DNA of 64,000 bases from Trypanosoma brucei (lineage: Eukaryota): positions 1,920,001-1,984,000 of the forward strand of contig CM000207.1 in NCBI GenBank assembly GCA_000002445.1. Direction: 5' to 3'. The notes beneath the pieces are model-generated. The model had not been told where the DNA came from and did no database searches. It saw only the letters and a program-made list of their open reading frames with translations. How positions within the stretch are numbered: the stretch's first letter is position 1; every line of letters starts with the position of its first letter. Below, piece after piece: positions 651 through 36,140 of this stretch. The position numbers and the translations under genes were made by a program.

Positions 651-2333
<1,683 letters not shown>

Positions 2334-2610: not shown

Positions 2611-4228
2611 ACGGTTGCCTTCTATATCAACCACGTTCCGGTCATATGACCTCGTGGAATATCACTTCTGTTTCGTGTCCTTGAAGCATCAGAAGTGGCT
2701 GCGGTTTCTGTTTGTAGGGAGTCGGCTTTTTGACTTGGTTCATTCCGTCGAGGTTTGACACGGGGGATGGCACCAACTGTATTTGCTGTGGGGTTTATAC
2801 TTGGCGCGGTTTCGCACACGCGGATGCCGTGAAAAGGAATGCCACGGCAATAAGTAACACTCAAGACGAATATTGATTTTTTTTTATTTTTCCTTTTTCT
2901 CTCTTTTTTAATGTGTGCCGAAATAATAACAATAACACCAACGGGCCATGATTTGGCTGAATTGGAGGAGTGGAAAAGAAGAATGCATTCACTTTGTGGT
3001 GAAGTGTGATCCTCCATCACTTTCACTTCCTTGAGATCTTCCTGTGCTAATCTTGGCTGGGATACTAAGATATCTGCTGCTGTCACAGTTTTTCTCAATA
3101 CCCTAACTCCATCTCCCACCTTGTAGTAGCGTTAAAGAAAATAATAATATCTAATCAATTTTGTCTGTAAGGTTGCCTGTGTACCTCATGCGTCTCTTTG
3201 TGGTGTTGTGGGGAATGAAGGCGACCGAGATACTAATGTGACGGACCTCGTCGGCTTGCTTTACTGTATACGCAGGATCGTGATGATATTAACCCTGCTC
3301 CGCTACTGAGTGTTGAAGCATGAAACGATATCCTTCAGGGCTACTGATGCCTGCGTGGGCAGTGTATGGGGTGTGACTTCCCTTTCATTAACTTCTCTTG
3401 TACATGCGTTGAAGCACAATCACACATATAAACGTATGCAACCTGGCGAGTGTAGGCCCGCCAGCTACCACGTGGAGTGTATACTCTCTATCTCTACGAC
3501 GGTCGTTCTACCGGGCCAAGAAACGGCGTCTGTTACTCAACAGTGGTTTCATTCATATGTTGTGTGACGTAGTGGCCACATGATGATCCATGTATTCACC
3601 ATATCGACACTGAGTCGGAAACTCCCCGTGACGCACAAGTGATTGTGCATGGAACCGCCCGCACACGCTGTAGGGCACTGACTACTTTGGTACGGGTGCC
3701 ACATCTTCCTTACTTTACTTACCTCTATCCCCCCTCTTCATTTCCCTGTTGCAACCGTACATACCCTAAACACACGTACACTACTATGATTACATCCATA
3801 ATGCGTCAGGACACACGAGTGTGTACGTGACTGTTGGATTCTAACGCGACGCCGTAAGCAATATGATCACTCTCCCATCTTTCAATCACTTCATCTCTCA
3901 CAAGATGTTTATTTTCACTTTTCCCCATCATCTCGCTACATTTGGATTTGAGGTGCGTGTTAGAGTCATTGTTGAATTTTGGCTAATGTTTCGGTTAAGC
4001 ATATGAACGTAAAAGTGGAATGTGTTATGTTCACCCGCTACCATGCTTTGTTCGCTACCTGTCGTGGCTCACCTATTTGATGGTCCGTTGGGTTAGTATG
4101 ACGAAGCTAGAGTCGTTGCTTATCGGTGTAATTTGGTTTTATTGGCATACATTGGTGTAATTTTGTGAAGCTCACCTCCCTTAATCGCCACCCACGTTGG
4201 TGTTATTGCGCTCATACACCTCTGGTAA

Positions 4229-5911
<1,683 letters not shown>

Positions 5912-7803
5912 TATTCTGAGGTTATGTGTGCTTTGTGATTTGCGTAATGGACTAACAGGCTGAACGGTATATCTTTTTTCTAAATCATCTCGAAGATTCT
6001 GTTTGTTTTTAAGAGGATTATCTTGGGACCTACCACGTTTTGTTATGTTTTCCCATTCCAATATTTTCCCTTTTTGTTCAACACTTTTTTATTGTTTCCT
6101 TCGGATTTGGTCACTATTGCTCCTTCTTTGTTGATATCCCTATGTTTTGTTGTTTTCGCCCCCCCCCCTCACACACACCACTAAGTACGGTTGCCTTCTA
6201 TATCAACCACGTTCCGGTCATATGACCTCGTGGAATATCACTTCTGTTTCGTGTCCTTGAAGCATCAGAAGTGGCTGCGGTTTCTGTTTGTAGGGAGTCG
6301 GATTTTTGACTTGGTTCATTCCATCTAGGTTTGACACGGGGGATGGCACCAACTGTATTTGCTGTGGGGTTTATACTTGGCGCGGTTTCGCACACGCGGA
6401 TGCCGTGAAAAGGAATGCCACGGCAATAAGTAACACTCAAAACGAATATTGATTTTTTTTATTTTTCCTTTTTCTCTCTTTTTTAATGTGTGCCGAAATA
6501 ATAACAATAACACCAACGGGCCATGATTTGGCTGAATTGGAGGAGTGGAAAAGAAGAATGCATTCACTTTGTGGTGAAGTGTGATCCTCCATCACTTTCA
6601 CTTCCTTGAGATCTTCCTGTGCTAATCTTGGCTGGGATACTAAGATATCTGCTGCTGTCACAGTTTTTCTCAATACCCTAACTCCATCTCCCACCTTGTA
6701 GTAGCGTTAAAGAAAATAATAATATCTAATCAATTTTGTCTGTAAGGTTGCCTGTGTACCTCATGCGTCTCTTTGTGGTGTTGTGGGGAATGAAGGCGAC
6801 CGAGATACTAATGTGATGGACCTCGTCGGCTTGCTTTACTGTATACGCGGGATCGTGATGATATTAACCCTGCTCCGCTACTGAGTGTTGAAGCATGAAA
6901 CGATATCCTTCAGGGCTACTGATGCCTGCGTGGGCAGTGTATGGGGTGTGACTTTCCTTTCATTAACTTCTCTTGTACATGCGTTGAAGCACAATCGCAC
7001 ATATAAACGTATGCAACCTGGCGAGTGTAGGCCCGCCAGCTACCACGTGGAGTGTATACTCTCTATCTCTACGACGGTCGTTCTACCGGGCCAAGAAGCG
7101 GCGTCTGTTACTCAACAGTGGTTTCATTCATATGTTGTGTGACGTAGTGGCCACATGATGATCCATGTATTCACCATATCGACACTGAGTCGGAAACTCC
7201 CCGTGACGCACAAGTGATTGTGCATGGAACCGCCCGCACACGCTGTAGGGCACTGACTACTTTGGTACGGGTGCCACATCTTCCTTACTTTACTTACCTC
7301 TATCCCCCCTCTTCATTTCCCTGTTGCAACCGTACATACCCTAAACACACGTACGCTACTATGATTACATCCATAATGCGTCAGGACACACGAGTGTGTA
7401 CGTGACTGTTGGATTCTAACGCGACGCCGTAAGCAATATGATCACTCTCCCATCTTTCAATCACTTCATCTCTCACAAGATGTTTATTTTCACTTTCCCC
7501 CATCATCTCGCTACATTTGGATTTGAGGTGCGTGTTAGAGTCATTGTTGAATTTTGGCTAATGTTTCGGTTAAGCATATGAACGTAAAAGTGGAATGTGT
7601 TATGTTCACCCGCTACCATGCTTTGTTCGCTACCTGTCGTGGCTCACCTATTTGATGGTCCGTTGGGTTAGTATGACGAAGCTAGAGTCGTTGCTTATCG
7701 GTGTAATTTGGTTTTATTGGCATACATTGGTGTAATTTTGTGAAGCTCGCCTCCCTTAATCGCCACCCACGTTGATGTTATTGCGCTCATACACCTCTGG
7801 TAA

Positions 7804-9486
<1,683 letters not shown>

Positions 9487-11382
9487 TATTCTGAGGTTAT
9501 GTGTGCTTTGTGATTTGCGTAATGGACTAACAGGCTGAACGGTATATCTTTTTTCTAAATCATCTCGAAGATTCTGTTTGTTTTTAAGAGGATTATCTTG
9601 GGACCTACCACGTTTTGTTATGTTTTCCCATTCCAATATTTTCCCTTTTTGTTCAACACTTTTTTATTGTTTCCTTCGGATTTGGTCACTATTGCTCCTT
9701 CTTTGTTGATATCCCTATGTTTTGTTGTTTTCGCCCCCCCCCCCACACACACACACCACTAAGTACGGTTGCCTTCTATATCAACCACGTTCCGGTCATA
9801 TGACCTCGTGGAATATCACTTCTGTTTCGTGTCCTTGAAGCATCAGAAGTGGCTGCGGTTTCTGTTTGTAGGGAGTCGGATTTTTGACTTGGTTCATTCC
9901 GTCTAGGTTTGACACGGGGGATGGCACCAACTGTATTTGCTGTGGGGTTTATACTTGGCGCGGTTTCGCACACGCGGATGCCGTGAAAAGGAATGCCACG
10001 GCAATAAGTAACACTCAAAACGAATATTGATTTTTTTTTATTTTTCCTTTTTCTCTCTTTTTTAATGTGTGCCGAAATAATAACAATAACACCAACGGGC
10101 CATGATTTGGCTGAATTGGAGGAGTGGAAAAGAAGAATGCATTCACTTTGTGGTGAAGTGTGATCCTCCATCACTTTCACTTCCTTGAGATCTTCCTGTG
10201 CTAATCTTGGCTGGGATACTAAGATATCTGCTGCTGTCACAGTTTTTCTCAATACCCTAACTCCATCTCCCACCTTGTAGTAGCGTTAAAGAAAATAATA
10301 ATATCTAATCAATTTTGTCTGTAAGGTTGCCTGTGTACCTCATGCGTCTCTTTGTGGTGTTGTGGGGAATGAAGGCGACCGAGATACTAATGTGATGGAC
10401 CTCGTCGGCTTGCTTTACTGTATACGCAGGATCGTGATGATATTAACCCTGCTCCGCTACTGAGTGTTGAAGCATGAAACGATATCCTTCAGGGCTACTG
10501 ATGCCTGCGTGGGCAGTGTATGGGGTGTGACTTTCCTTTCATTAACTTCTCTTGTACATGCGTTGAAGCACAATCACACATATAAACGTATGCAACCTGG
10601 CGAGTGTAGGCCCGCCAGCTACCACGTGGAGTGTATACTCTCTATCTCTACGACGGTCGTTCTACCGGGCCAAGAAGCGGCGTCTGTTACTCAACAGTGG
10701 TTTCATTCATATGTTGTGTGACGTAGTGGCCACATGATGATCCATGTATTCACCATATCGACACTGAGTCGGAAACTCCCCGTGACGCACAAGTGATTGT
10801 GCATGGAACCGCCCGCACACGCTGTAGGGCACTGACTACTTTGGTACGGGTGCCACATCTTCCTTACTTTACTTACCTCTATCCCCCCTCTTCATTTCCC
10901 TGTTGCAACCGTACATACCCTAAACACACGTACGCTACTATGATTACATCCATAATGCGTCAGGACACACGAGTGTGTACGTGACTGTTGGATTCTAACG
11001 CGACGCCGTAAGCAATATGATCACTCTCCCATCTTTCAATCACTTCATCTCTCACAAGATGTTTATTTTCTCTTTCCCCCATCACCTCGCTACATTTGGA
11101 TTTGAGGTGCGTGTTAGAGTCATTGTTGAATTTTGGCTAATGTTTCGGTTAAGCATATGAACGTAAAAGTGGAATGTGTTATGTTCACCCGCTACCATGC
11201 TTTGTTCGCTACCTGTCGTGGCTCACCTATTTGATGGTCCGTTGGGTTAGTATGACGAAGCTAGAGTCGTTGCTTATCGGTGTAATTTGGTTTTATTGGC
11301 ATACATTGGTGTAATTTTGTGAAGCTCGCCTCCCTTAATCGCCACCCACGTTGATGTTATTGCGCTCATACACCTCTGGTAA

Positions 11383-13065
<1,683 letters not shown>

Positions 13066-15066
13066 TATTCTGAGGTTATGTGTGCTTTGTGATTTGCGTA
13101 ATGGACTAACAGGCTGAACGGTATATCTTTTTTCTAAATCATCTCGAAGATTCTGTTTGTTTTTAAGAGGATTATCTTGGGACCTACCACGTTTTGTTAT
13201 GTTTTCCCATTCCAATATTTTCCCTTTTTGTTCAACACTTTTTTATTGTTTCCTTCGGATTTGGTCACTATTGCTCCTTCTTTGTTGATATCCCTATGTT
13301 TTGTTGTTTTCGCCCCCCCCCCACACACACACACACCACTAAGTACGGTTGCCTTCTATATCAACCACGTTCCGGTCATATGACCTCGTGGAATATCACT
13401 TCTGTTTCGTGTCCTTGAAGCATCAGAAGTGGCTGCGGTTTCTGTTTGTAGGGAGTCGGATTTTTGACTTGGTTCATTCCATCTAGGTTTGACACGGGGG
13501 ATGGCACCAACTGTATTTGCTGTGGGGTTTATACTTGGCGCGGTTTCGCACACGCGGATGCCGTGAAAAGGAATGCAACGGCAATAAGTAACACTCAAAA
13601 CGAATATTGATTTTTTTTTATTTTTCCTTTTTCTCTCTTTTTTAATGTGTGCCGAAATAATAACAATAACACCAACGGGCCATGATTTGGCTGAATTGGA
13701 GGAGTGGAAAAGAAGAATGCATTCACTTTGTGGTGAAGTGTGATCCTCCATCACTTTCACTTCCTTGAGATCTTCCTGTGCTAATCTTGGCTGGGATACT
13801 AAGATATCTGCTGCTGTCACAGTTTTTCTCAATACCCTAACTCCATCTCCCACCTTGTAGTAGCGTTAAAGAAAATAATAATATCTAATCAATTTTGTCT
13901 GTAAGGTTGCCTGTGTACCTCATGCGTCTCTTTGTGGTGTTGTGGGGAATGAAGGCGACCGAGATACTAATGTGATGGACCTCGTCGGCTTGCTTTACTG
14001 TATACGCGGGATCGTGATGATATTAACCCTGCTCCGCTACTGAGTGTTGAAGCATGAAACGATATCCTTCAGGGCTACTGATGCCTGCGTGGGCAGTGTA
14101 TGGGGTGTGACTTTCCTTTCATTAACTTCTCTTGTACATGCGTTGAAGCACAATCACACATATAAACGTATGCAACCTGGCGAGTGTAGGCCCGCCAGCT
14201 ACCACGTGGAGTGTATACTCTCTATCTCTACGACGGTCGTTCTGCCGGGCCAAGAAGCGGCGTCTGTTACTCAACAGTGGTTTCATTCATATGTTGTGTG
14301 ACGTAGTGGCCACATGATGATCCATGTATTCACCATATCGACACTGAGTCGGAAACTCCCCGTGACGCACAAGTGATTGTGCATGGAACCGCCCGCACAC
14401 GCTGTAGGGCACTGACTACTTTGGTACGGGTGCCACATCTTCCTTACTTTACTTACCTCTATCCCCCCTCTTCATTTCCCTGTTGCAACCGTACATACCC
14501 TAAACACACGTACACTACTATGATTACATCCATAATGCGTCAGGACACACGAGTGTGTACGTGACTGTTGGATTCTAACGCGACGCCGTAAGCAATATGA
14601 TCACTCTCCCATCTTTCAATCACTTCATCTCTCACAAGATGTTTATTTTCTCTTTCCCCCATCACCTCGCTACATTTGGATTTGAGGTGCGTGTTAGAGT
14701 CATTGTTGAATTTTGGCTAATGTTTCGGTTAAGCATATGAACGTAAAAGTGGAATGTGTTATGTTCACCCGCTACCATGCTTTGTTCGCTACCTGTCGTG
14801 GCTCACCTATTTGATGGTCCGTTGGGTTAGTATGACGAAGCTAGAGTCGTTGCTTATCGGTGTAATTTGGTTTTATTGGCATACATTGGTGTAATTTTGT
14901 GAAGCTCGCCTCCCTTAATCGCCACCCACGTTGATGTTATTGCGCTCATACACCTCTGGTAATGCAATCCTCGTCTTCATGTGTTTTCACTGCATTTATA
15001 TCTACGTCCGCGTCATAATCTGCAATGCCGACCTGTAGGAGAGTTAGCCACTAAGTTTATTATTAT

Positions 15067-15147
15067 TTAATATTTTTGGCGTAATTTTTTTTGTATTTTA
15101 ATTTTCGTTTTTTAACTTTTCTTCTTAACTCTTTTCTTTTGGTTCAG
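15067..15147 (+). promoter_or_regulatory. T-rich polypyrimidine tract ending in AG (15146-15147), immediately downstream of the array breakpoint. Candidate SL acceptor region for the E1 gene.
   Basis: 81 nt that are more than 85% pyrimidine/T, then ..ggttcAG. Confidence 0.45.
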
Positions 15148-15291
15148 CCTCGCATGCCAAAACATCAACGGGATCGCTTTTCCAATTGTCCTGCATTTTG
15201 TTCGCATACTAGTAATAAGCTTTTTCGAACAGAGTTAACCCATTATTCCTCCGATACTACAAGAAACGTTAATATAAACGGATTTACCAAA

Positions 15292-18200
15292 ATGAGTAAG
15301 ATGGCTGGTGCTACGGCCGATTCAAGTGATGCTTCTTCAGCCATTGATTCCAAGTTTCTTGATCAGCAGAGTCGGACGATTGGCACTTATGGTTTGGAGA
15401 CAATGGCAAAACTAATATCTTTCAAGGTTCTTGTTGTTGGGTGCGGAGGAGTCGGTATAGAGACTGCGAAAAACCTTGCGCTTGCTGGCGTACACACTAT
15501 TACTCTTTGTGATCCAAAGAAAGCTGAATTGAAGGATATGGGGGTTAACTTTGCCGTCACAGAAACAACAATAAAGGCTGGTTTGACTCGGGCGGAAGCT
15601 TCAAAGAGGTTGGTTGCGGAGCTAAACCCGAATGTACGCGTACGGACAGTCGATGCTATTGATGAAGCTGTAGTCAGTGAGGTGAACTGTGTTGTATATA
15701 CTTCTGCAGCGGCGGATTGGTCTTCGAAAACACTGTTGAAGTGGGACCAGTTTTGTCGGACGAGAACACCCGCTATATCATTTATTTTTGCTTTCCAGGG
15801 TGGTTCACTTGCTTCCGTTTTTGCTGATCATGCCCCCAACTTCACTGTTAAGGATGCTGATGGAAGGCCAATGCTGCAAAAATTGATAGTGGAGGTTCTC
15901 ACAAAGCGCGACAAGAGTGGAGTGGAGTACACACGCGTGCGCTACGAAACACCAGAGGGTCAAACACCCGGAGCTTTCCGTGATTACACGGAAGTTAAGT
16001 TTAGTGAAGTTAAGGGACTTTGTAAGGCAAATGGAGAAAGTATTAATGGTAATGTTTTCAAGGGCGTGGTGTGCACTGGTGATCCCCCAAACACCGTGCG
16101 AATATATCCCTCACTGGAAAGCCAAGGTTATTCTGCTTACGAAACTGCGGGCTTCCTTCACGAGATGAAGGAAAGCCAGCAATTGAAGTTCCGGGCACTC
16201 TCAGAAGCCCTTTCGTGCCCGGGTCAATTTGTACCTGTTAGCTCCATGATGGATGGGTCGGAGGAATCTCAATCTCACCTGACTTTTACCGCATTATTGA
16301 GATTTTTTGACAAACACGGTCGGCTACCCGAACTTCATAATCTATCTGAGGCGAATGAAGTAGTTTCACTCGCCAAAGCTGTCAACGAGGAGAACAAAGC
16401 TGCCGATGCGAAGCTCGAGAAGGTGGATCACCCTATGTTTTTGCAGCACGAAAACAAGGAATTTCCTTCTCGCCTTGCACCACCTCCACCACCAACTCCT
16501 CTTTGCGTTGAAACTCTCGATGAGGGGTTTGTTTGCTCGCAGGCGCTTGTGTCTGCTGCAGAACTTCAACCTCTTTGCGCCGTATGGGGAGCCGTTCTTG
16601 CACAAGAGATTGTGAAGATTACAGGTAAATATACACCAATTTGTCAGTGGCTTCATGTTGGCTACTCTTCGATCCTCGCTAGCAACGCTTCTTACACGAA
16701 ATCTCCCCAAGAGTATAAGGTTGTTGACCATCGCTACAAGCATCTGATATCACTGTTCGGAAAAACGTTTGTTGAAAAATTAAACAATCTGAAACTTTTT
16801 ATGGTTGGCTGCGGTGCTCTCGGATGTGAGAACATTAAGAACTTTGCTCTTTGTGGAATGAGCTGCGGCCCCCGTGGCTCATTCGTTGTTACAGACAACG
16901 ACCGGATCGAAGTATCCAACCTAAGTCGCCAGTTTCTTTTCCGTGAGGAAAACGTCGGCCAACCGAAATCAGCCGTGGCTGTGTCGCGAATGAAGAGTAT
17001 AAACAAGGATGTGAAAGCTGATGCCCGGCAGGATTACGTGGGAAGCAACACGGAACATATTTACCATGATGTGTTCTGGAATGGGTTGGACGCGGTCGTT
17101 AACGCTCTTGACAACATGGAAACTCGACTCTATGTTGACCAGAAGTGCGTGAACTTCCACAAAATCCTTGTGGAAGCAGGAACGATGGGAACTGGCGGAA
17201 ACGTTGATATCGTTGTTCCTGGTAAAACCACGTCGTACTCAGATGGTGGTGCCGCGGATACAACCGGTGGTATTCCCATGTGCACGTTGCGCAATTTCCC
17301 GTACACCTCCGACCACTGCACTGAATGGGCGCGGGCGCAGTTCGATGACCTTTTTGTTTCCCCAATGCAAACAGTGAGACAACTGTTGGAAAACCCAGCA
17401 GCGTTCACTGAACGCATAAAGAATGAGGTAAACAATGCTCAGAGCGCAGGTGAACGACTCAGTTTGGTTGAGAAAAACCTTGGCATTCTTCAAGGCATAC
17501 AGAAAACGGTAACAACTCTATCTGCGGGCGTTTCCATGGAAAAATGCGTGCAGTGTGCGTGGGAGACAATGTTTCATCTCTTCCGTGACCGCATTCTTGA
17601 CCTACAGCGTTCTTTCCCGAAGGATGCCAAGAAGAAAAATGGTGAAAAGTTTTGGTCTGGACACCGCAAGTACCCAACCCCACTCGAGGTCAACATAAAA
17701 GCCCTGTCATCTGACCCTGACGTTGTGGAGTTTCTCATTTCTGCTGCAAACCTGTTTGCATGCATGTACGGTATTCATCCTCAAAAGCATGAGCCTCGGC
17801 TGAATGACCCCAAAAAGCGCTGGATGCAGCAATATCGCACGCTGGATTGGCTTAATGGCGTTATGAAAAACTGCACGGTACCAGAATACAAACCTGGCTC
17901 TGTTGAGGGACTTGATGACGACCTTCTTCAATCTATGGAAAAGCAAGAGGTTTCCAAAGACGAAACGACAAAGGAGCAAACTCTGAATAACCTCCTGAGT
18001 AGTGTTGTGGCATTGGCTCAGAAGTGTCATAACATGAATACCGTACCATTGGACTTCGAAAAAGATGATGATGATAACTTTCACATTGACTTCGTTGCCG
18101 CAACGAGCAACCTCCGAGCCCGCAACTATGACATCCCTACGCAAGACCGATTCAAGGTGAAGCTTGTAGCTGGAAAAATTATACCCGCCATCGCAACCAC

Positions 18201-18798
18201 AACGGCTGCAGTCACTGGACTTGCCCTCATCGAGTACTTCAAGGCTTTGTTGAGCAACGATGTCTCCTGCCTCCGCAATGGCATGCTTGATATTGGTACA
18301 AATAACTACGTTTTGTTTGAGCGTGATGCCCCACTTAAACATCGTACCCGTGTTGATAAAACCTACTTACCTGAGCAAGACTACACGTACAAGAAGAAGG
18401 TTATTTGTCTCCCTGAAGGATACACCAAGTATGACATGATTGAAGTGCCCATTACGAAGGCGACTACCGTTCAACAGTTTGCTACAGAACTTGAAAAGAA
18501 ACTTAATACCCTCCTCCCAACTGGGATGAATGCGGGCTGTGAGGTAAGCGCAATTGGTGTCGGTAAAGGAAGTTTGTGGAATGGACTGCCAAAGCACGCT
18601 AACACCAACTGCTCTTTGATGGACATCATCGAGAAGCAAAAACTCTCTGAAGCGGGTGGGAAACTCCCGCGACCCTTCTGGGAGAATCGCACACATTTTC
18701 ACGACTTATCCGTTACTGTGTCTATTGATGATGACGATGCCAATGTCGATGAGGTTGATGTTGAAACCGCTACAATACTTTTGCGCATCCAACAATAA
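15292..18798 (+). CDS. UBA1: Ubiquitin-activating enzyme E1 (UBA1-like), 1168 aa from ATG 15292. An alternative in-frame ATG lies at 15154; the ORF track start at 15091 is TTG.
   Basis: Two ThiF/MoeB nucleotide-binding repeats (VLVVGCGGVGIETAKNLALAGV and LFMVGCGALGCENIKNFALCGM). Catalytic-cysteine motif PMCTLRNFPY. Overall size and order match eukaryotic UBA1. Confidence 0.88.
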   Translation: MSKMAGATADSSDASSAIDSKFLDQQSRTIGTYGLETMAKLISFKVLVVGCGGVGIETAKNLALAGVHTITLCDPKKAELKDMGVNFAVTETTIKAGLTRAEASKRLVAELNPNVRVRTVDAIDEAVVSEVNCVVYTSAAADWSSKTLLKWDQFCRTRTPAISFIFAFQGGSLASVFADHAPNFTVKDADGRPMLQKLIVEVLTKRDKSGVEYTRVRYETPEGQTPGAFRDYTEVKFSEVKGLCKANGESINGNVFKGVVCTGDPPNTVRIYPSLESQGYSAYETAGFLHEMKESQQLKFRALSEALSCPGQFVPVSSMMDGSEESQSHLTFTALLRFFDKHGRLPELHNLSEANEVVSLAKAVNEENKAADAKLEKVDHPMFLQHENKEFPSRLAPPPPPTPLCVETLDEGFVCSQALVSAAELQPLCAVWGAVLAQEIVKITGKYTPICQWLHVGYSSILASNASYTKSPQEYKVVDHRYKHLISLFGKTFVEKLNNLKLFMVGCGALGCENIKNFALCGMSCGPRGSFVVTDNDRIEVSNLSRQFLFREENVGQPKSAVAVSRMKSINKDVKADARQDYVGSNTEHIYHDVFWNGLDAVVNALDNMETRLYVDQKCVNFHKILVEAGTMGTGGNVDIVVPGKTTSYSDGGAADTTGGIPMCTLRNFPYTSDHCTEWARAQFDDLFVSPMQTVRQLLENPAAFTERIKNEVNNAQSAGERLSLVEKNLGILQGIQKTVTTLSAGVSMEKCVQCAWETMFHLFRDRILDLQRSFPKDAKKKNGEKFWSGHRKYPTPLEVNIKALSSDPDVVEFLISAANLFACMYGIHPQKHEPRLNDPKKRWMQQYRTLDWLNGVMKNCTVPEYKPGSVEGLDDDLLQSMEKQEVSKDETTKEQTLNNLLSSVVALAQKCHNMNTVPLDFEKDDDDNFHIDFVAATSNLRARNYDIPTQDRFKVKLVAGKIIPAIATTTAAVTGLALIEYFKALLSNDVSCLRNGMLDIGTNNYVLFERDAPLKHRTRVDKTYLPEQDYTYKKKVICLPEGYTKYDMIEVPITKATTVQQFATELEKKLNTLLPTGMNAGCEVSAIGVGKGSLWNGLPKHANTNCSLMDIIEKQKLSEAGGKLPRPFWENRTHFHDLSVTVSIDDDDANVDEVDVETATILLRIQQ

Positions 18799-34996: not shown

Positions 34997-36140
34997 TTTG
35001 ATGTCAAAAACCTTTTTTTTGTCCCACCATCTAGGTGGATGATCACGATGCTTTGTTTTTTTTTGCTATGGGAACCTTTCCCCTTTCGTCCTTTGCGTCC
35101 ACACGTGGGAGAGGGTGCTAGTTTTTTTTTAATTTTTTGCCAGTTGAAAATAAGACCAATTCGCGCGCACAATTTTGGATGTGTCTCCCTTCTCTCATGT
35201 TGCCACATTAACCACACATTTAATGCATTTTCTTCTGTTCTGCTCTGTTTATTTTTTTTTGAACATGTACACGCACACATTAAAATATATAACACCATGT
35301 GTTTCTCCCTCTTTTCTCTTCGTTTGTGTAATTGAAAACAACAAATGAGGCACCGAAGTAAAAAAAAAAAAGGTAAAATGTTCAACCCGCTCGCACCGAT
35401 GATATTAGCACGGCATGGGGAACGTTTCAGCTGTTATTAGGTCGTCCAGTATGGTGCTTTTAGTCACTTTTGGATTTATTCAACGGCAGCGAGATTCCAC
35501 CTCTGCGTTCCTTTCCGTACTCATGCGTGCCCATTTTTGGTGAGGATTTCATACTGTGTCATGGGCTTTCACCTCAAATGAAAGTCCTTCATATGGTGAC
35601 AAACTTTGCATCTTATGTTAAAATATGCTTTCGACCCTTTTTGAGCTGAGGAGAGCTTTAAAAAAAAAAATGAGGTTTAATGTGTTTATTTGATAAAGCC
35701 GGTAGTTTCCTCACCGATGAATGGGATTCCCCCTAATATTGCGATGGACAATGACATTCACCATTTGTTTTCATATTTTCGCAACCGGCAGTTGCACGAA
35801 CCCACACTTAGAAACGTATCCCCGCTTCCCGAACAATTTGTTAATAATGGCAATAATCTGAAAAAAACGCTCCTATACACACTCCCTGTTGATTTCACAA
35901 TAACTTTTCGTATCGTAGTGATTGCTAATGCTCATGCTATGCTCTGTTGCTATTGACTCACATTGCTTTTGTTTTTTTTTCGTGTATTGGCTCGGTGGTG
36001 TTCACTAAATTCTTTCGTTACGTACTTCTTTGAGATAAAGGCACAAAACAACATTAGGAGCAATACAACAAGGGAACTACAACCCCCCTTATTATAACTG
36101 TAATTATTCTCATTGTTGATAGGACTTCGAGCAAAATTAT

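What the first reader, a model, noticed from the sequence alone, without database searches (positions are those of the whole stretch)
14373..15300. The array ends in an (ATT)n run 38 nt before a would-be fifth GK ATG, and E1 follows immediately
After the last GK copy, the entire 2-kb spacer is present once more (13066-15066). Similarity then stops inside gtttattattatt|taatatttttgg, exactly where the other units continue ...attattgtttcaagaaagac...ATG. The slot that a further GK would occupy is taken by a T-rich tract with an AG, followed by the ubiquitin E1 gene. The breakpoint at a trinucleotide microrepeat suggests that the array boundary formed by illegitimate or microhomology-mediated recombination. 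It also means that the E1 upstream processing signals lie directly at the junction.
Basis: seen in the sequence. Interest (0 to 1): 0.5.

Follow-up and report, generated by a model that had tools for sequence, protein, structure and literature searches.

The report
Glycerol-kinase/snoRNA array fused to E1 gene
It is an ordinary rearrangement scar, and it marks where a neighbouring gene was lost.

Summary
After the last glycerol kinase (GK) copy (11527-13065) the 2-kb inter-GK sequence recurs (13066-15067). Identity stops after GTTT(ATT)3 at 15067|15068. A 78-nt T-rich tract, one AG (15146-15147) and the E1 (TbUBA1b) ATG at 15154 follow.

The "spacer" is not inert. It holds the GK 3'UTR, the TB9Cs4 snoRNA cluster (H1, H2 and three conserved blocks) and a sixth candidate H/ACA-like RNA.

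The array is S2-(leader+GK+S1+S2)n. S2 is 1122 nt (13946-15067 in the last unit). The far-left copy, seen in other assemblies, starts inside snoRNA H1.

In four trypanosomes with single-copy GK the same RNA genes lie upstream of GK. An 812-822-aa AttH-like gene separates GK from E1, and nothing spacer-like precedes E1. T. vivax has an analogous but differently placed joint.

Microhomology cannot be shown, because the ATT count at the joint varies from 2 to 4 between strains. A T-rich tract followed by an AG a few nt before the long-form ATG is conserved in four species. This supports AG 15146-15147 as the E1 acceptor.

The feature is ordinary and of modest interest.

The parts
11527..13065 (+). 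Last glycerol kinase copy of the array (512 aa, C-terminal AKL)
   Evidence: ORF and translation. Pfam FGGY_N and FGGY_C. About 100% identical to the T. brucei-group glycosomal GK P0107.
13066..13945 (+). S1: the GK 3' flank of the last unit. It contains the GK 3'UTR and the 5' 44 nt of snoRNA H1.
   Evidence: Present once per GK copy. The major poly(A) site is about 650 nt after the stop codon for all five reference copies (Kolev et al. 2010 Table S13). No similarity to the unique left flank of the array.
13946..15067 (+). S2: the 1122-nt segment present n+1 times. Here it is the terminal partial unit that precedes E1 instead of a GK.
   Evidence: The left edge of the array in L012 and L008 begins at the equivalent of 13946. 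The right edge is at 15067. S2 copies within one genome differ by 0-4 nt.
13902..13963 (+). snoRNA TB9Cs4H1 (H/ACA-like). It spans the S1|S2 point.
   Evidence: Rfam RF01557, 75.5 bits against a gathering score of 40, in every unit. The leftmost array copy gives no H1 match at the Rfam gathering score; by sequence it keeps only the last 18 nt of H1.
14014..14081 (+). C/D snoRNA block A (GUGAUGA ... CUGA ... CUGA), presumably one of TB9Cs4C1-C3
   Evidence: 80% identical to four T. cruzi copies and to one T. vivax copy; 76% to T. theileri.
14188..14258 (+). snoRNA TB9Cs4H2 (H/ACA-like)
   Evidence: Rfam RF01558, 96.6 bits against a gathering score of 50.
14314..14415 (+). C/D snoRNA block B (AUGAUGA ... 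CUGA ... GUGAUUG ... CUGA)
   Evidence: Conserved with T. vivax and T. cruzi.
14519..14600 (+). Conserved block C, presumably the third C/D snoRNA of the cluster. Its boxes are not clear.
   Evidence: 83% identical to three T. cruzi copies and 73% to T. vivax.
14776..14849 (+). Candidate sixth small RNA: a single hairpin followed by an AGA box (H/ACA-like). It serves as an orthology anchor for 'upstream of GK'.
   Evidence: Alignment A6/A7 and RNAalifold give 20 pairs, 5 of them with compensatory changes. Covariance model R1 finds it 152-257 nt upstream of the GK ATG in six Trypanosoma species, including T. vivax, which was not in the model (53 bits). No Rfam family matches.
15059..15067 (+). 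(ATT)3 run. The joint 15067|15068 lies at its 3' end.
   Evidence: Inner units have (ATT)4 followed by GTTTCAAG. At the joint the count is 3 here and in T. equiperdum, 2 in GCA_003543875.1 and 4 in T. b. gambiense.
15068..15145 (+). E1 polypyrimidine tract (unique sequence)
   Evidence: 75% pyrimidine and 65% T over 15068-15144. No other copy in the window. An analogous tract lies upstream of E1 in T. vivax, T. cruzi and T. theileri.
15146..15147 (+). The only AG between the joint and ATG 15154. It is the predicted spliced-leader acceptor of E1.
   Evidence: List of AG positions. An AG 2-7 nt before the long-form ATG is conserved in four species. E1 is absent from Kolev Table S1, which lists acceptors inside ORFs.
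15154..18798 (+). Ubiquitin-activating enzyme E1 (TbUBA1b, Tb927.9.12650), long form of 1214 aa. An in-frame ATG lies at 15292.
   Evidence: Pfam ThiF, UBA_E1_SCCH and E1_4HB. About 100% identical to the T. equiperdum 1214-aa protein. The N-terminal extension is conserved in T. cruzi, T. theileri, T. melophagium, T. vivax and Bodo. Gene identity comes from PMC6838199 and PMC2443814.

Best explanation
What it is. 15067|15068 is a derived, non-homologous rearrangement joint at the right end of the T. brucei GK array.

The repeat unit. Each unit contains, in order:
- a 39-nt leader and the GK gene;
- an 880-nt 3' flank (S1);
- a 1122-nt segment (S2).
S2 carries most of the TB9Cs4 snoRNA cluster (H1, C/D block A, H2, C/D block B, block C), a further hairpin RNA, and the region upstream of the GK splice site. 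The array is S2-(leader+GK+S1+S2)n.

Ancestral order. This order is kept in T. cruzi, T. conorhini and T. melophagium, and partly seen in T. theileri (GK - AttH-like gene - E1, with block A and the hairpin RNA upstream of GK; no DnaJ, H1 or H2 detected in that locus): DnaJ - snoRNA cluster(s) - hairpin RNA - about 150-250 nt - GK - AttH-like gene - E1. The continuity from S2 through (ATT)4 into the GK leader in the inner units is therefore ancestral.

Origin of the joint (inferred). A deletion or template switch ran from the ATT run upstream of a terminal GK copy to the 5' edge of the E1 polypyrimidine tract. It removed that GK copy, its 3' flank and the AttH-like gene.

Consequences (inferred):
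- E1 keeps its own ancestral tract and AG. It is trans-spliced at AG 15146-15147, 6 nt before ATG 15154.
- The last snoRNA-cluster precursor is now followed by E1 signals instead of GK signals.
- The terminal S2 provides one extra functional copy of five of the six small-RNA genes in S2. The sixth, H1, starts in S1 and so comes once per GK copy.
- The flanking S2 direct repeats can drive copy-number change by unequal recombination.

The other joints. The left edge lies 44 nt into H1. An unlocated joint between the GK poly(A) site and H1 is the third novel joint required.
For: Shown:
- The repeat anatomy and the exact break.
- Rfam hits to TB9Cs4H1 and TB9Cs4H2 in every unit.
- The five conserved RNA blocks align with T. 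vivax and with a 701-nt tandem unit in T. cruzi.
- In T. cruzi (L004), T. conorhini (L019) and T. melophagium (L020) H1 and H2 lie only upstream of GK. An AttH-like ORF lies between GK and E1.
- The hairpin element at 14776-14849 lies 152-257 nt upstream of the GK ATG in six species. This includes an independent T. vivax hit of 53 bits.
- There is no similarity between the 3' part of S2 and the E1-upstream or GK-downstream regions of the outgroups.
- The leftmost array copy gives no H1 match at the Rfam gathering score; by sequence it retains only the last 18 nt of H1, while inner copies are intact. S1|S2 is therefore ancestral continuity and the left edge is a break.
- In T. vivax the right edge cuts a degenerate copy of block A that is contiguous in the inner units.
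- No relic of the AttH-like gene remains in the spacers.
- No salivarian ortholog was found among named family members.
- The same joint occurs in four T. brucei-group assemblies.
- The E1 architecture of T-rich tract, AG and long-form ATG is conserved.
- Kolev et al. 2010 report that snoRNA precursors carry a spliced leader and a poly(A) tail, and that the GK 3'UTR is about 650 nt.
Against: - The order of events cannot be reconstructed. At least three novel joints are needed, and the inner one has not been located.
- The E1-side endpoints in T. brucei and T. vivax are 86 and 98 nt before the ATG. They are suspiciously similar for two independent deletions.
- Absence of an AttH-like ortholog elsewhere in T. 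brucei rests on searches that return representatives and names only for some proteins.
- The left flank comes from assemblies other than the window's strain.
- No spliced-leader or poly(A) read data for E1 could be retrieved. The acceptor site is therefore predicted, not observed.
- T. congolense, the closest outgroup, could not be examined.
Confidence: 0.75

Rival explanations
1. The right edge is ancestral. On this view the whole 2-kb spacer was always the GK-E1 intergenic region, the novel unit-to-unit joint is the (ATT)n site inside the inner units, and only the left edge is secondary.
For: - It needs only two joints for the array itself.
- H1 is intact across S1|S2, so the GK-S1-S2 continuity is old.
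- The last spacer is as similar to the inner ones as they are to each other.
Against: - In four species with single-copy GK the snoRNA cluster and the hairpin element lie upstream of GK, an AttH-like gene separates GK from E1, and nothing homologous to S2 precedes E1.
- The hairpin-to-GK-ATG distance is conserved at 152-257 nt across six species. That argues the S2-to-GK continuity is the ancestral one.
- The view would additionally require moving the cluster across GK and deleting the AttH-like gene.
Confidence: 0.07
2. A single origin in the salivarian ancestor. The array and the E1-side breakpoint arose once, before T. brucei and T. vivax split. The GK-side sequence at the joint was later remodelled in one lineage, for example by repair of a break at the joint that copied further into an inner unit and re-joined in the T-rich or ATT sequence.
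For: - Both species have a GK+snoRNA array, lack the AttH-like gene and carry a terminal partial unit fused 86 nt (T. brucei) or 98 nt (T. vivax) upstream of the long-form E1 ATG.
- The intergenic region before E1 in the outgroups ranges from 231 to 1214 nt. Near-identical endpoints are therefore unexpected for independent events.
Against: - The joints lie on opposite sides of the conserved hairpin element. That element is absent from the T. vivax terminal unit and present in the T. brucei one.
- The left edges also differ: inside H1 in T. brucei, 7 nt after H1 in T. vivax.
- The sequences around the joints cannot be aligned.
Confidence: 0.15
3. A chance or artefactual boundary. On this view the terminal spacer is an assembly collapse or mis-join of a repeat, and the ATT run is coincidental.
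For: Repeat arrays are often mis-assembled. T. b. gambiense has a 100-N gap in the array, and the T. equiperdum contig breaks at the repeat edge.
Against: - The same joint sequence occurs in four independent assemblies, with only microsatellite-length differences.
- The T. equiperdum contig reads through the joint.
- An analogous structure exists in two T. vivax contigs.
Confidence: 0.02

Closest known systems
T. brucei glycosomal glycerol kinase tandem array (Tb927.9.12550-12630) followed by Tb927.9.12650 (TbUBA1b)
   Same: This is that locus. It has 512-aa GK copies ending in AKL, five annotated tandem genes (PMC6245841), E1 identified as TbUBA1b (PMC6838199), and unit spacings that match the reference coordinates.
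   Different: Nothing differs in kind. The held papers describe the genes, not the array edges, the n+1 copies of S2 or the relation to the lost AttH-like gene.
TB9Cs4 snoRNA cluster of trypanosomatids (Rfam RF01557 TB9Cs4H1, RF01558 TB9Cs4H2; C/D members TB9Cs4C1-C3 cited in PMC9283944)
   Same: Full-length Rfam matches above the gathering score occur in every unit. The order H1, C/D, H2, C/D, block C is conserved in T. cruzi and T. vivax. The cluster is tandemly reiterated and lies on the same strand as its neighbours, as snoRNA genes in T. brucei do (PMC2936537).
   Different: In T. cruzi the cluster repeats on its own (701-nt unit, 3.5 copies) upstream of a single GK. In T. brucei and T. 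vivax the repeat unit has come to include GK. A sixth conserved hairpin/AGA element matches no Rfam family.
Tandem arrays bounded by a partial unit and expanded by unequal crossing-over between flanking direct repeats (general genome-evolution model; from established knowledge, not tested by experiment here)
   Same: The structure is head-to-tail units of about 99.3-100% identity, an S2-(G-S2)n layout, and copy number varying between strains (4, 5, and at least 2 plus a gap).
   Different: Both outer edges are non-homologous joints that cut or abut functional elements. The flanking repeat is itself a product of earlier rearrangement, not a dispersed element.
Microhomology-mediated end joining or template-switch junctions
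   Same: The break abuts a short AT-rich trinucleotide run, and the left edge shows no more than about 2 nt of possible shared sequence.
   Different: The defining feature is identity shared by both parental sequences at the break. It cannot be checked because the E1-side parent is lost. The run length is polymorphic.

Membership tests
Tandem gene array with terminal partial unit | Head-to-tail copies of one unit with high identity | tested here: met
   Period of about 3578 bp. Inter-GK spacers differ by 5-15 mismatches per 2 kb (about 99.3-99.8% identical). Four GK copies in the window.
Tandem gene array with terminal partial unit | A segment of the unit present n+1 times at the array ends | tested here: met
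   S2 (1122 nt) precedes the first GK in L012 and L008 and follows the last GK in the window.
Derived (non-ancestral) junction | Outgroups with the unrearranged state show different neighbours on the two sides of the joint | tested here: met
   In T. cruzi, T. theileri, T. melophagium and T. conorhini the S2 homologues lie upstream of GK. The AttH-like gene lies upstream of E1.
Microhomology-mediated junction (MMEJ / FoSTeS) | 2-20 nt of identity shared by both parental sequences at the breakpoint | not testable with these tools
   The E1-side parental sequence (the AttH-E1 intergenic region of the T. brucei ancestor) no longer exists. Outgroup sequences cannot be aligned. The ATT count at the joint varies from 2 to 4.
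Trypanosomatid trans-splice acceptor module | A polypyrimidine tract followed by the first AG, upstream of the start codon | tested here: met
   15068-15145 is 75% pyrimidine. The sole AG is at 15146-15147 and the ATG at 15154. The same layout occurs in T. vivax, T. cruzi and T. theileri.
Trypanosomatid trans-splice acceptor module | Spliced-leader-containing reads that map to the AG | not testable with these tools
   Kolev Tables S4 and S12 are truncated in the held copy. The Nilsson and Siegel supplements hold no entry. The only indirect point is that E1 is not listed among genes with an acceptor inside the ORF (Table S1).
TB9Cs4 snoRNA cluster | Matches to the curated covariance models above the gathering score | tested here: met
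   RF01557 scores 75.5 bits (gathering 40) and RF01558 scores 96-99 bits (gathering 50), both full length, in each unit.
TB9Cs4 snoRNA cluster | C/D members with C, D' and D boxes | tested here: inconclusive
   Blocks A and B show GUGAUGA or AUGAUGA and two CUGA boxes, and they are conserved. Block C is conserved but its boxes are unclear. Assignment of the names C1-C3 was not possible.
H/ACA-like snoRNA (candidate at 14776-14849) | A single hairpin with an internal loop, followed by an AGA box near the 3' end | tested here: met
   RNAalifold hairpin of 20 pairs, 5 with compensatory changes. AGA follows 1 nt after the closing helix in all five species. An independent T. vivax hit scores 53 bits.
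H/ACA-like snoRNA (candidate at 14776-14849) | Expression as a small RNA and a pseudouridylation target | not tested
   No small-RNA data or target search was done.

The most novel reading that the evidence does not exclude
T. brucei and T. vivax may each have independently fused a truncated GK/snoRNA unit onto the 5' edge of the E1 polypyrimidine tract, at 86 and 98 nt from the ATG, while losing the AttH-like gene. That would point to a recurrent break site, or to selection for placing a snoRNA cluster directly upstream of E1. In that case 3'-end formation of the last snoRNA precursor would be coupled to E1 trans-splicing.
Probability: 0.2. Interest if true: 0.5.

Novelty: new member of a known kind. 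Interest (0 to 1): 0.3.

Why it matters
- It corrects the picture of the T. brucei GK array. The repeat unit is a snoRNA-cluster repeat that has come to include GK, not a gene plus inert spacer.
- In African trypanosomes GK and six small-RNA genes are therefore amplified together. Changes in GK copy number change snoRNA gene dosage.
- The joint pinpoints where a gene conserved in other trypanosomatids (the AttH/lipocalin-like gene) was lost from this locus in T. brucei and T. vivax.
- It predicts the E1 (TbUBA1b) acceptor site, a 6-nt 5'UTR and a conserved 46-aa N-terminal extension. This matters for expression constructs and tagging.
- None of this changes a major concept. It is a well-resolved example of array-edge evolution.

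Tried and rejected
- Spacer as a decayed AttH-like gene: rejected. tblastn gave only E of about 0.1-5. A profile HMM against six-frame translations scored no better than shuffles.
- Hidden similarity between the unique left flank and S1, which would move the left edge: none. Score 14 against a shuffle maximum of 16.
- A relic second H1 or block A copy in the 3' part of T. brucei S2, as in T. vivax and the outgroups: none.
- An H1 relic before block A in T. vivax: chance-level.
- My first idea that the T. vivax 64-nt overlap is exactly one snoRNA gene: wrong. It is 23 nt plus the 5' half of a degenerate block A copy.
- Tandem Repeats Finder found nothing because the period exceeds its limit.
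- Exact-protein look-ups of the window's own GK and E1 failed.
- Spliced-leader site tables were either not held or truncated.
- Liang et al. 2005, which described the clusters, is not held.
- The word-indexed search with the AttH-like protein returned only 5 hits and missed known orthologs. Its negative result for T. brucei is weak on its own. The exhaustive profile search with names for the top clusters strengthens it but does not settle it.

Full report
**1.

The window opens inside a tandem array with a unit of about 3578 bp. It holds four identical-length glycerol kinase ORFs (512 aa, Pfam FGGY_N and FGGY_C, C-terminal AKL). Their ATGs are at 795, 4373, 7948 and 11527.

The sequence between GK copies (about 2000 nt plus a 39-nt leader) recurs after the last GK at 13066-15067. 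It is no more diverged than the inner copies, at 5-15 mismatches per 2 kb.

A five-way alignment shows identity ending after GTTT(ATT)3 at 15067. Inner units continue with ATTGTTTCAAG...ATG, 39 nt to the GK ATG. The last copy continues with TAATATTTTTGG....

A 78-nt T-rich tract follows (15068-15145; 75% pyrimidine over 15068-14144's extent). Then come a single AG (15146-15147), ATG 15154 and an in-frame ATG 15292 of a ThiF/UBA_E1_SCCH protein.

The joint is real. It is found in T. b. gambiense, in a second chromosome-level T. brucei-group assembly and in a T. equiperdum contig.

The locus is the known one. Tb927.9.12550-12630 encode GK as five tandem genes (PMC6245841). Tb927.9.12650 (old name Tb09.211.3610) is TbUBA1b (PMC6838199 and PMC2443814). 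The unit spacings 3578/3575/3579 match reference copies 2-5, as deduced from the poly(A) coordinates of Kolev et al. 2010. The first copy therefore lies just upstream of the window.

**2. The "spacer" is not a spacer**

Rfam finds TB9Cs4H1 (13902-13963 in the last unit) and TB9Cs4H2 (14188-14258) at full length and above the gathering score in every unit.

Cross-species blastn and an alignment with T. vivax and T. cruzi reveal five conserved blocks in the order H1, C/D block A (14014-14081), H2, C/D block B (14314-14415), block C (14519-14600). The cluster members TB9Cs4C1-C3 are known methylation guides (PMC9283944).

A sixth element at 14776-14849 forms a conserved hairpin with five compensatory pairs and an AGA box. 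A covariance model built from five species finds it in front of every GK in T. vivax as well (53 bits). No Rfam family matches it.

The GK 3'UTR ends about 650 nt after the stop codon in all five reference copies (Kolev Table S13), roughly 190 nt before H1. Kolev et al. also report that T. brucei snoRNAs are made from precursors that carry a spliced leader and a poly(A) tail.

**3. The other edge of the array**

An exact look-up of the GK protein returned loci with the left flank.

Upstream of the first GK the array does not stop at the 39-nt leader. A partial copy is present that begins at the equivalent of window 13946, 442 nt after the DnaJ stop codon.

That point lies 44 nt into H1. The leftmost copy keeps only the last 18 nt of H1 and gives no H1 match at the Rfam gathering score. 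H2 and the hairpin element are present in it.

The array is therefore S2-(leader+GK+S1+S2)n, where S1 is 13066-13945 and S2 is 13946-15067 in the last unit.

Because H1 is an old gene (also present in T. cruzi, T. conorhini, T. melophagium and T. vivax) and is intact across S1|S2 in the inner units, S1|S2 is ancestral continuity. The left edge is a true break. The unique left flank has no similarity to S1.

**4. Which side of 15067|15068 is ancestral?**

Syntenic loci were fetched through the E1 and GK orthologues.

In T. cruzi, T. conorhini and T. melophagium the order is:
- DnaJ;
- the snoRNA cluster, tandemly repeated on its own (701-nt unit, 3.5 copies in T. cruzi);
- the hairpin element;
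- 152-207 nt;
- single-copy GK;
- an 812-822-aa AttH/lipocalin-like gene;
- E1.

T. theileri (L005) shows part of this order. Block A and the hairpin element lie upstream of its single-copy GK, and the AttH-like gene lies between GK and E1. No H1 or H2 match was found there, and a 441-aa gene with no Pfam match, not DnaJ, lies upstream.

No H1, H2 or hairpin hit lies between GK and E1 in any of the four. The 3' part of S2 shows no similarity to their E1-upstream or GK-downstream regions. Its best local match in all four falls on the same element upstream of GK.

So the continuity from S2 through (ATT)4 into the GK leader is ancestral, and the S2|E1 joint is derived.

The AttH-like gene has left no detectable relic in the T. 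brucei or T. vivax spacers. Family searches found orthologues in many trypanosomatids but none named from a salivarian species. This is suggestive, not conclusive.

**5. T. vivax as a second case**

A complete T. vivax array (DnaJ, three GK copies, E1; L014) has the same logic.

The inner unit reads: GK, 793 nt, block A, H2, block B, block C, H1, a degenerate block A copy, the hairpin element, 185 nt, GK.

The left edge begins 7 nt after H1. The right edge cuts the degenerate block A copy, which is contiguous in the inner units. It joins that copy to a T-rich tract 98 nt before the long-form E1 ATG.

The T. vivax joint lies upstream of the hairpin element and the T. brucei joint downstream of it. 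The two joints are therefore not the same, although their E1-side ends are only about 12 nt apart relative to the ATG. I cannot decide between independent events and a shared E1-side break that was later remodelled.

**6. Mechanism**

At least three novel joints are required in T. brucei:
- the left edge, inside H1;
- an unlocated inner joint between the GK poly(A) site and H1;
- the right edge.

The right edge is best explained as a deletion or template switch from the ATT run upstream of a terminal GK copy to the 5' edge of the E1 polypyrimidine tract. It would have removed that GK copy and the AttH-like gene.

Once S2 flanked GK on both sides, unequal recombination between the S2 copies would expand and contract the array. 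This fits the near-identity of all S2 copies (0-4 differences) and copy numbers of 4, 5 and at least 2 in different genomes.

The order of events is inferred, not shown.

The association of the break with an (ATT)n run is unlikely by chance, since such runs are rare outside the array. Microhomology, however, cannot be demonstrated. The run at the joint has 2, 3 or 4 repeats in different genomes while the inner units always have 4, and the E1-side parental sequence is gone.

**7. E1 signals**

The 46-aa extension encoded from ATG 15154 (MPKHQRDRFSNCPAF...KLFRTEL) is conserved in T. cruzi, T. theileri, T. melophagium and Bodo saltans. It is also present, unannotated, in T. vivax. It is absent in Leishmania.

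In T. brucei, T. vivax, T. cruzi and T. theileri a long T-rich tract is followed by an AG only 2-7 nt before that ATG. The only AG between the joint and 15154 is 15146-15147.

E1 is not in Kolev's complete list of genes with an acceptor inside the ORF.

I therefore predict splicing at 15146-15147, a 6-nt 5'UTR beyond the spliced leader, and translation from 15154. Use of 15292 as a second start is not excluded.

**8. Verdict**

The finding is a correctly observed edge of a known tandem array.

Its picture of an inert spacer and a demonstrable microhomology is not supported.

The interest is modest. The new points are:
- co-amplification of GK with a snoRNA cluster;
- the n+1 copies of S2;
- the site of loss of the AttH-like gene;
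- a differently placed analogue in T. vivax;
- a candidate extra H/ACA-like RNA.

Noticed in passing
window 14776-14849 (also 464-537, 4042-4115, 7617-7690, 11196-11269): A conserved single hairpin followed by an AGA box (H/ACA-like) lies 152-257 nt upstream of the GK ATG in six Trypanosoma species. It has five compensatory base pairs and matches no Rfam family. It may be an unmodelled or unannotated snoRNA of the TB9Cs4 cluster.
   Followed up: yes
window 15154-15291: A 46-aa N-terminal extension of E1 (TbUBA1b) is conserved in Trypanosoma and Bodo but absent in Leishmania. The T. vivax, T. grayi and T. conorhini proteins are annotated from the internal ATG. Two in-frame starts could give two isoforms.
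   Followed up: partly
L004 7331-9769; L005 6318-8786; L020 12291-14747; L006 5718-8186: An 812-822-aa AttH/lipocalin-like gene lies between GK and E1 in T. cruzi, T. theileri and T. melophagium, and directly upstream of E1 in L. donovani (L006, where GK is not within the 10 kb fetched). It is missing from this position in T. brucei and T. vivax. No salivarian ortholog was seen among named family members.
   Followed up: partly
L004 2547-4811: In T. cruzi the same snoRNA cluster is a tandem array of its own: a 701-nt unit with 3 full copies plus H1 and block A, immediately upstream of single-copy GK.
   Followed up: yes
L014 19626-19756: In T. vivax the block A copy next to the E1 joint is degenerate (C box GUGGUGG, no D box). 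In the terminal copy it also carries a CTGA-to-CAGA change.
   Followed up: partly
window 13874-13882 (and once per unit): A second trinucleotide run, (AAT)3 on the + strand, lies 20 nt upstream of H1. This is the region where the unlocated inner joint of the unit should lie.
   Followed up: no
window 35427-35498: A weak hit of the hairpin covariance model (21.6 bits, E 0.004). It could be chance or another H/ACA-like RNA.
   Followed up: no
window 13356-13853 (-), 9776-10273 (-), 2622-3119 (-): A 165-aa antisense ORF is repeated in S1 of three of the four units. It has no Pfam match and is probably spurious.
   Followed up: partly
window 795-2333 versus 4373-5911, 7948-9486 and 11527-13065: The GK copies are not identical. 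Residue 71 is S in the first in-window copy and F in the others. The third copy has K210N.
   Followed up: no
L012/L010 merged, S2 copies: In GCA_003543875.1 the two edge copies of S2 share a 1-nt shorter C run that the three inner copies lack. This could be a trace of the original flanking repeats or a homopolymer error.
   Followed up: no
L008 7472-7571: The T. b. gambiense DAL972 assembly has a 100-N gap inside the array and only two GK copies, so it is probably collapsed.
   Followed up: no
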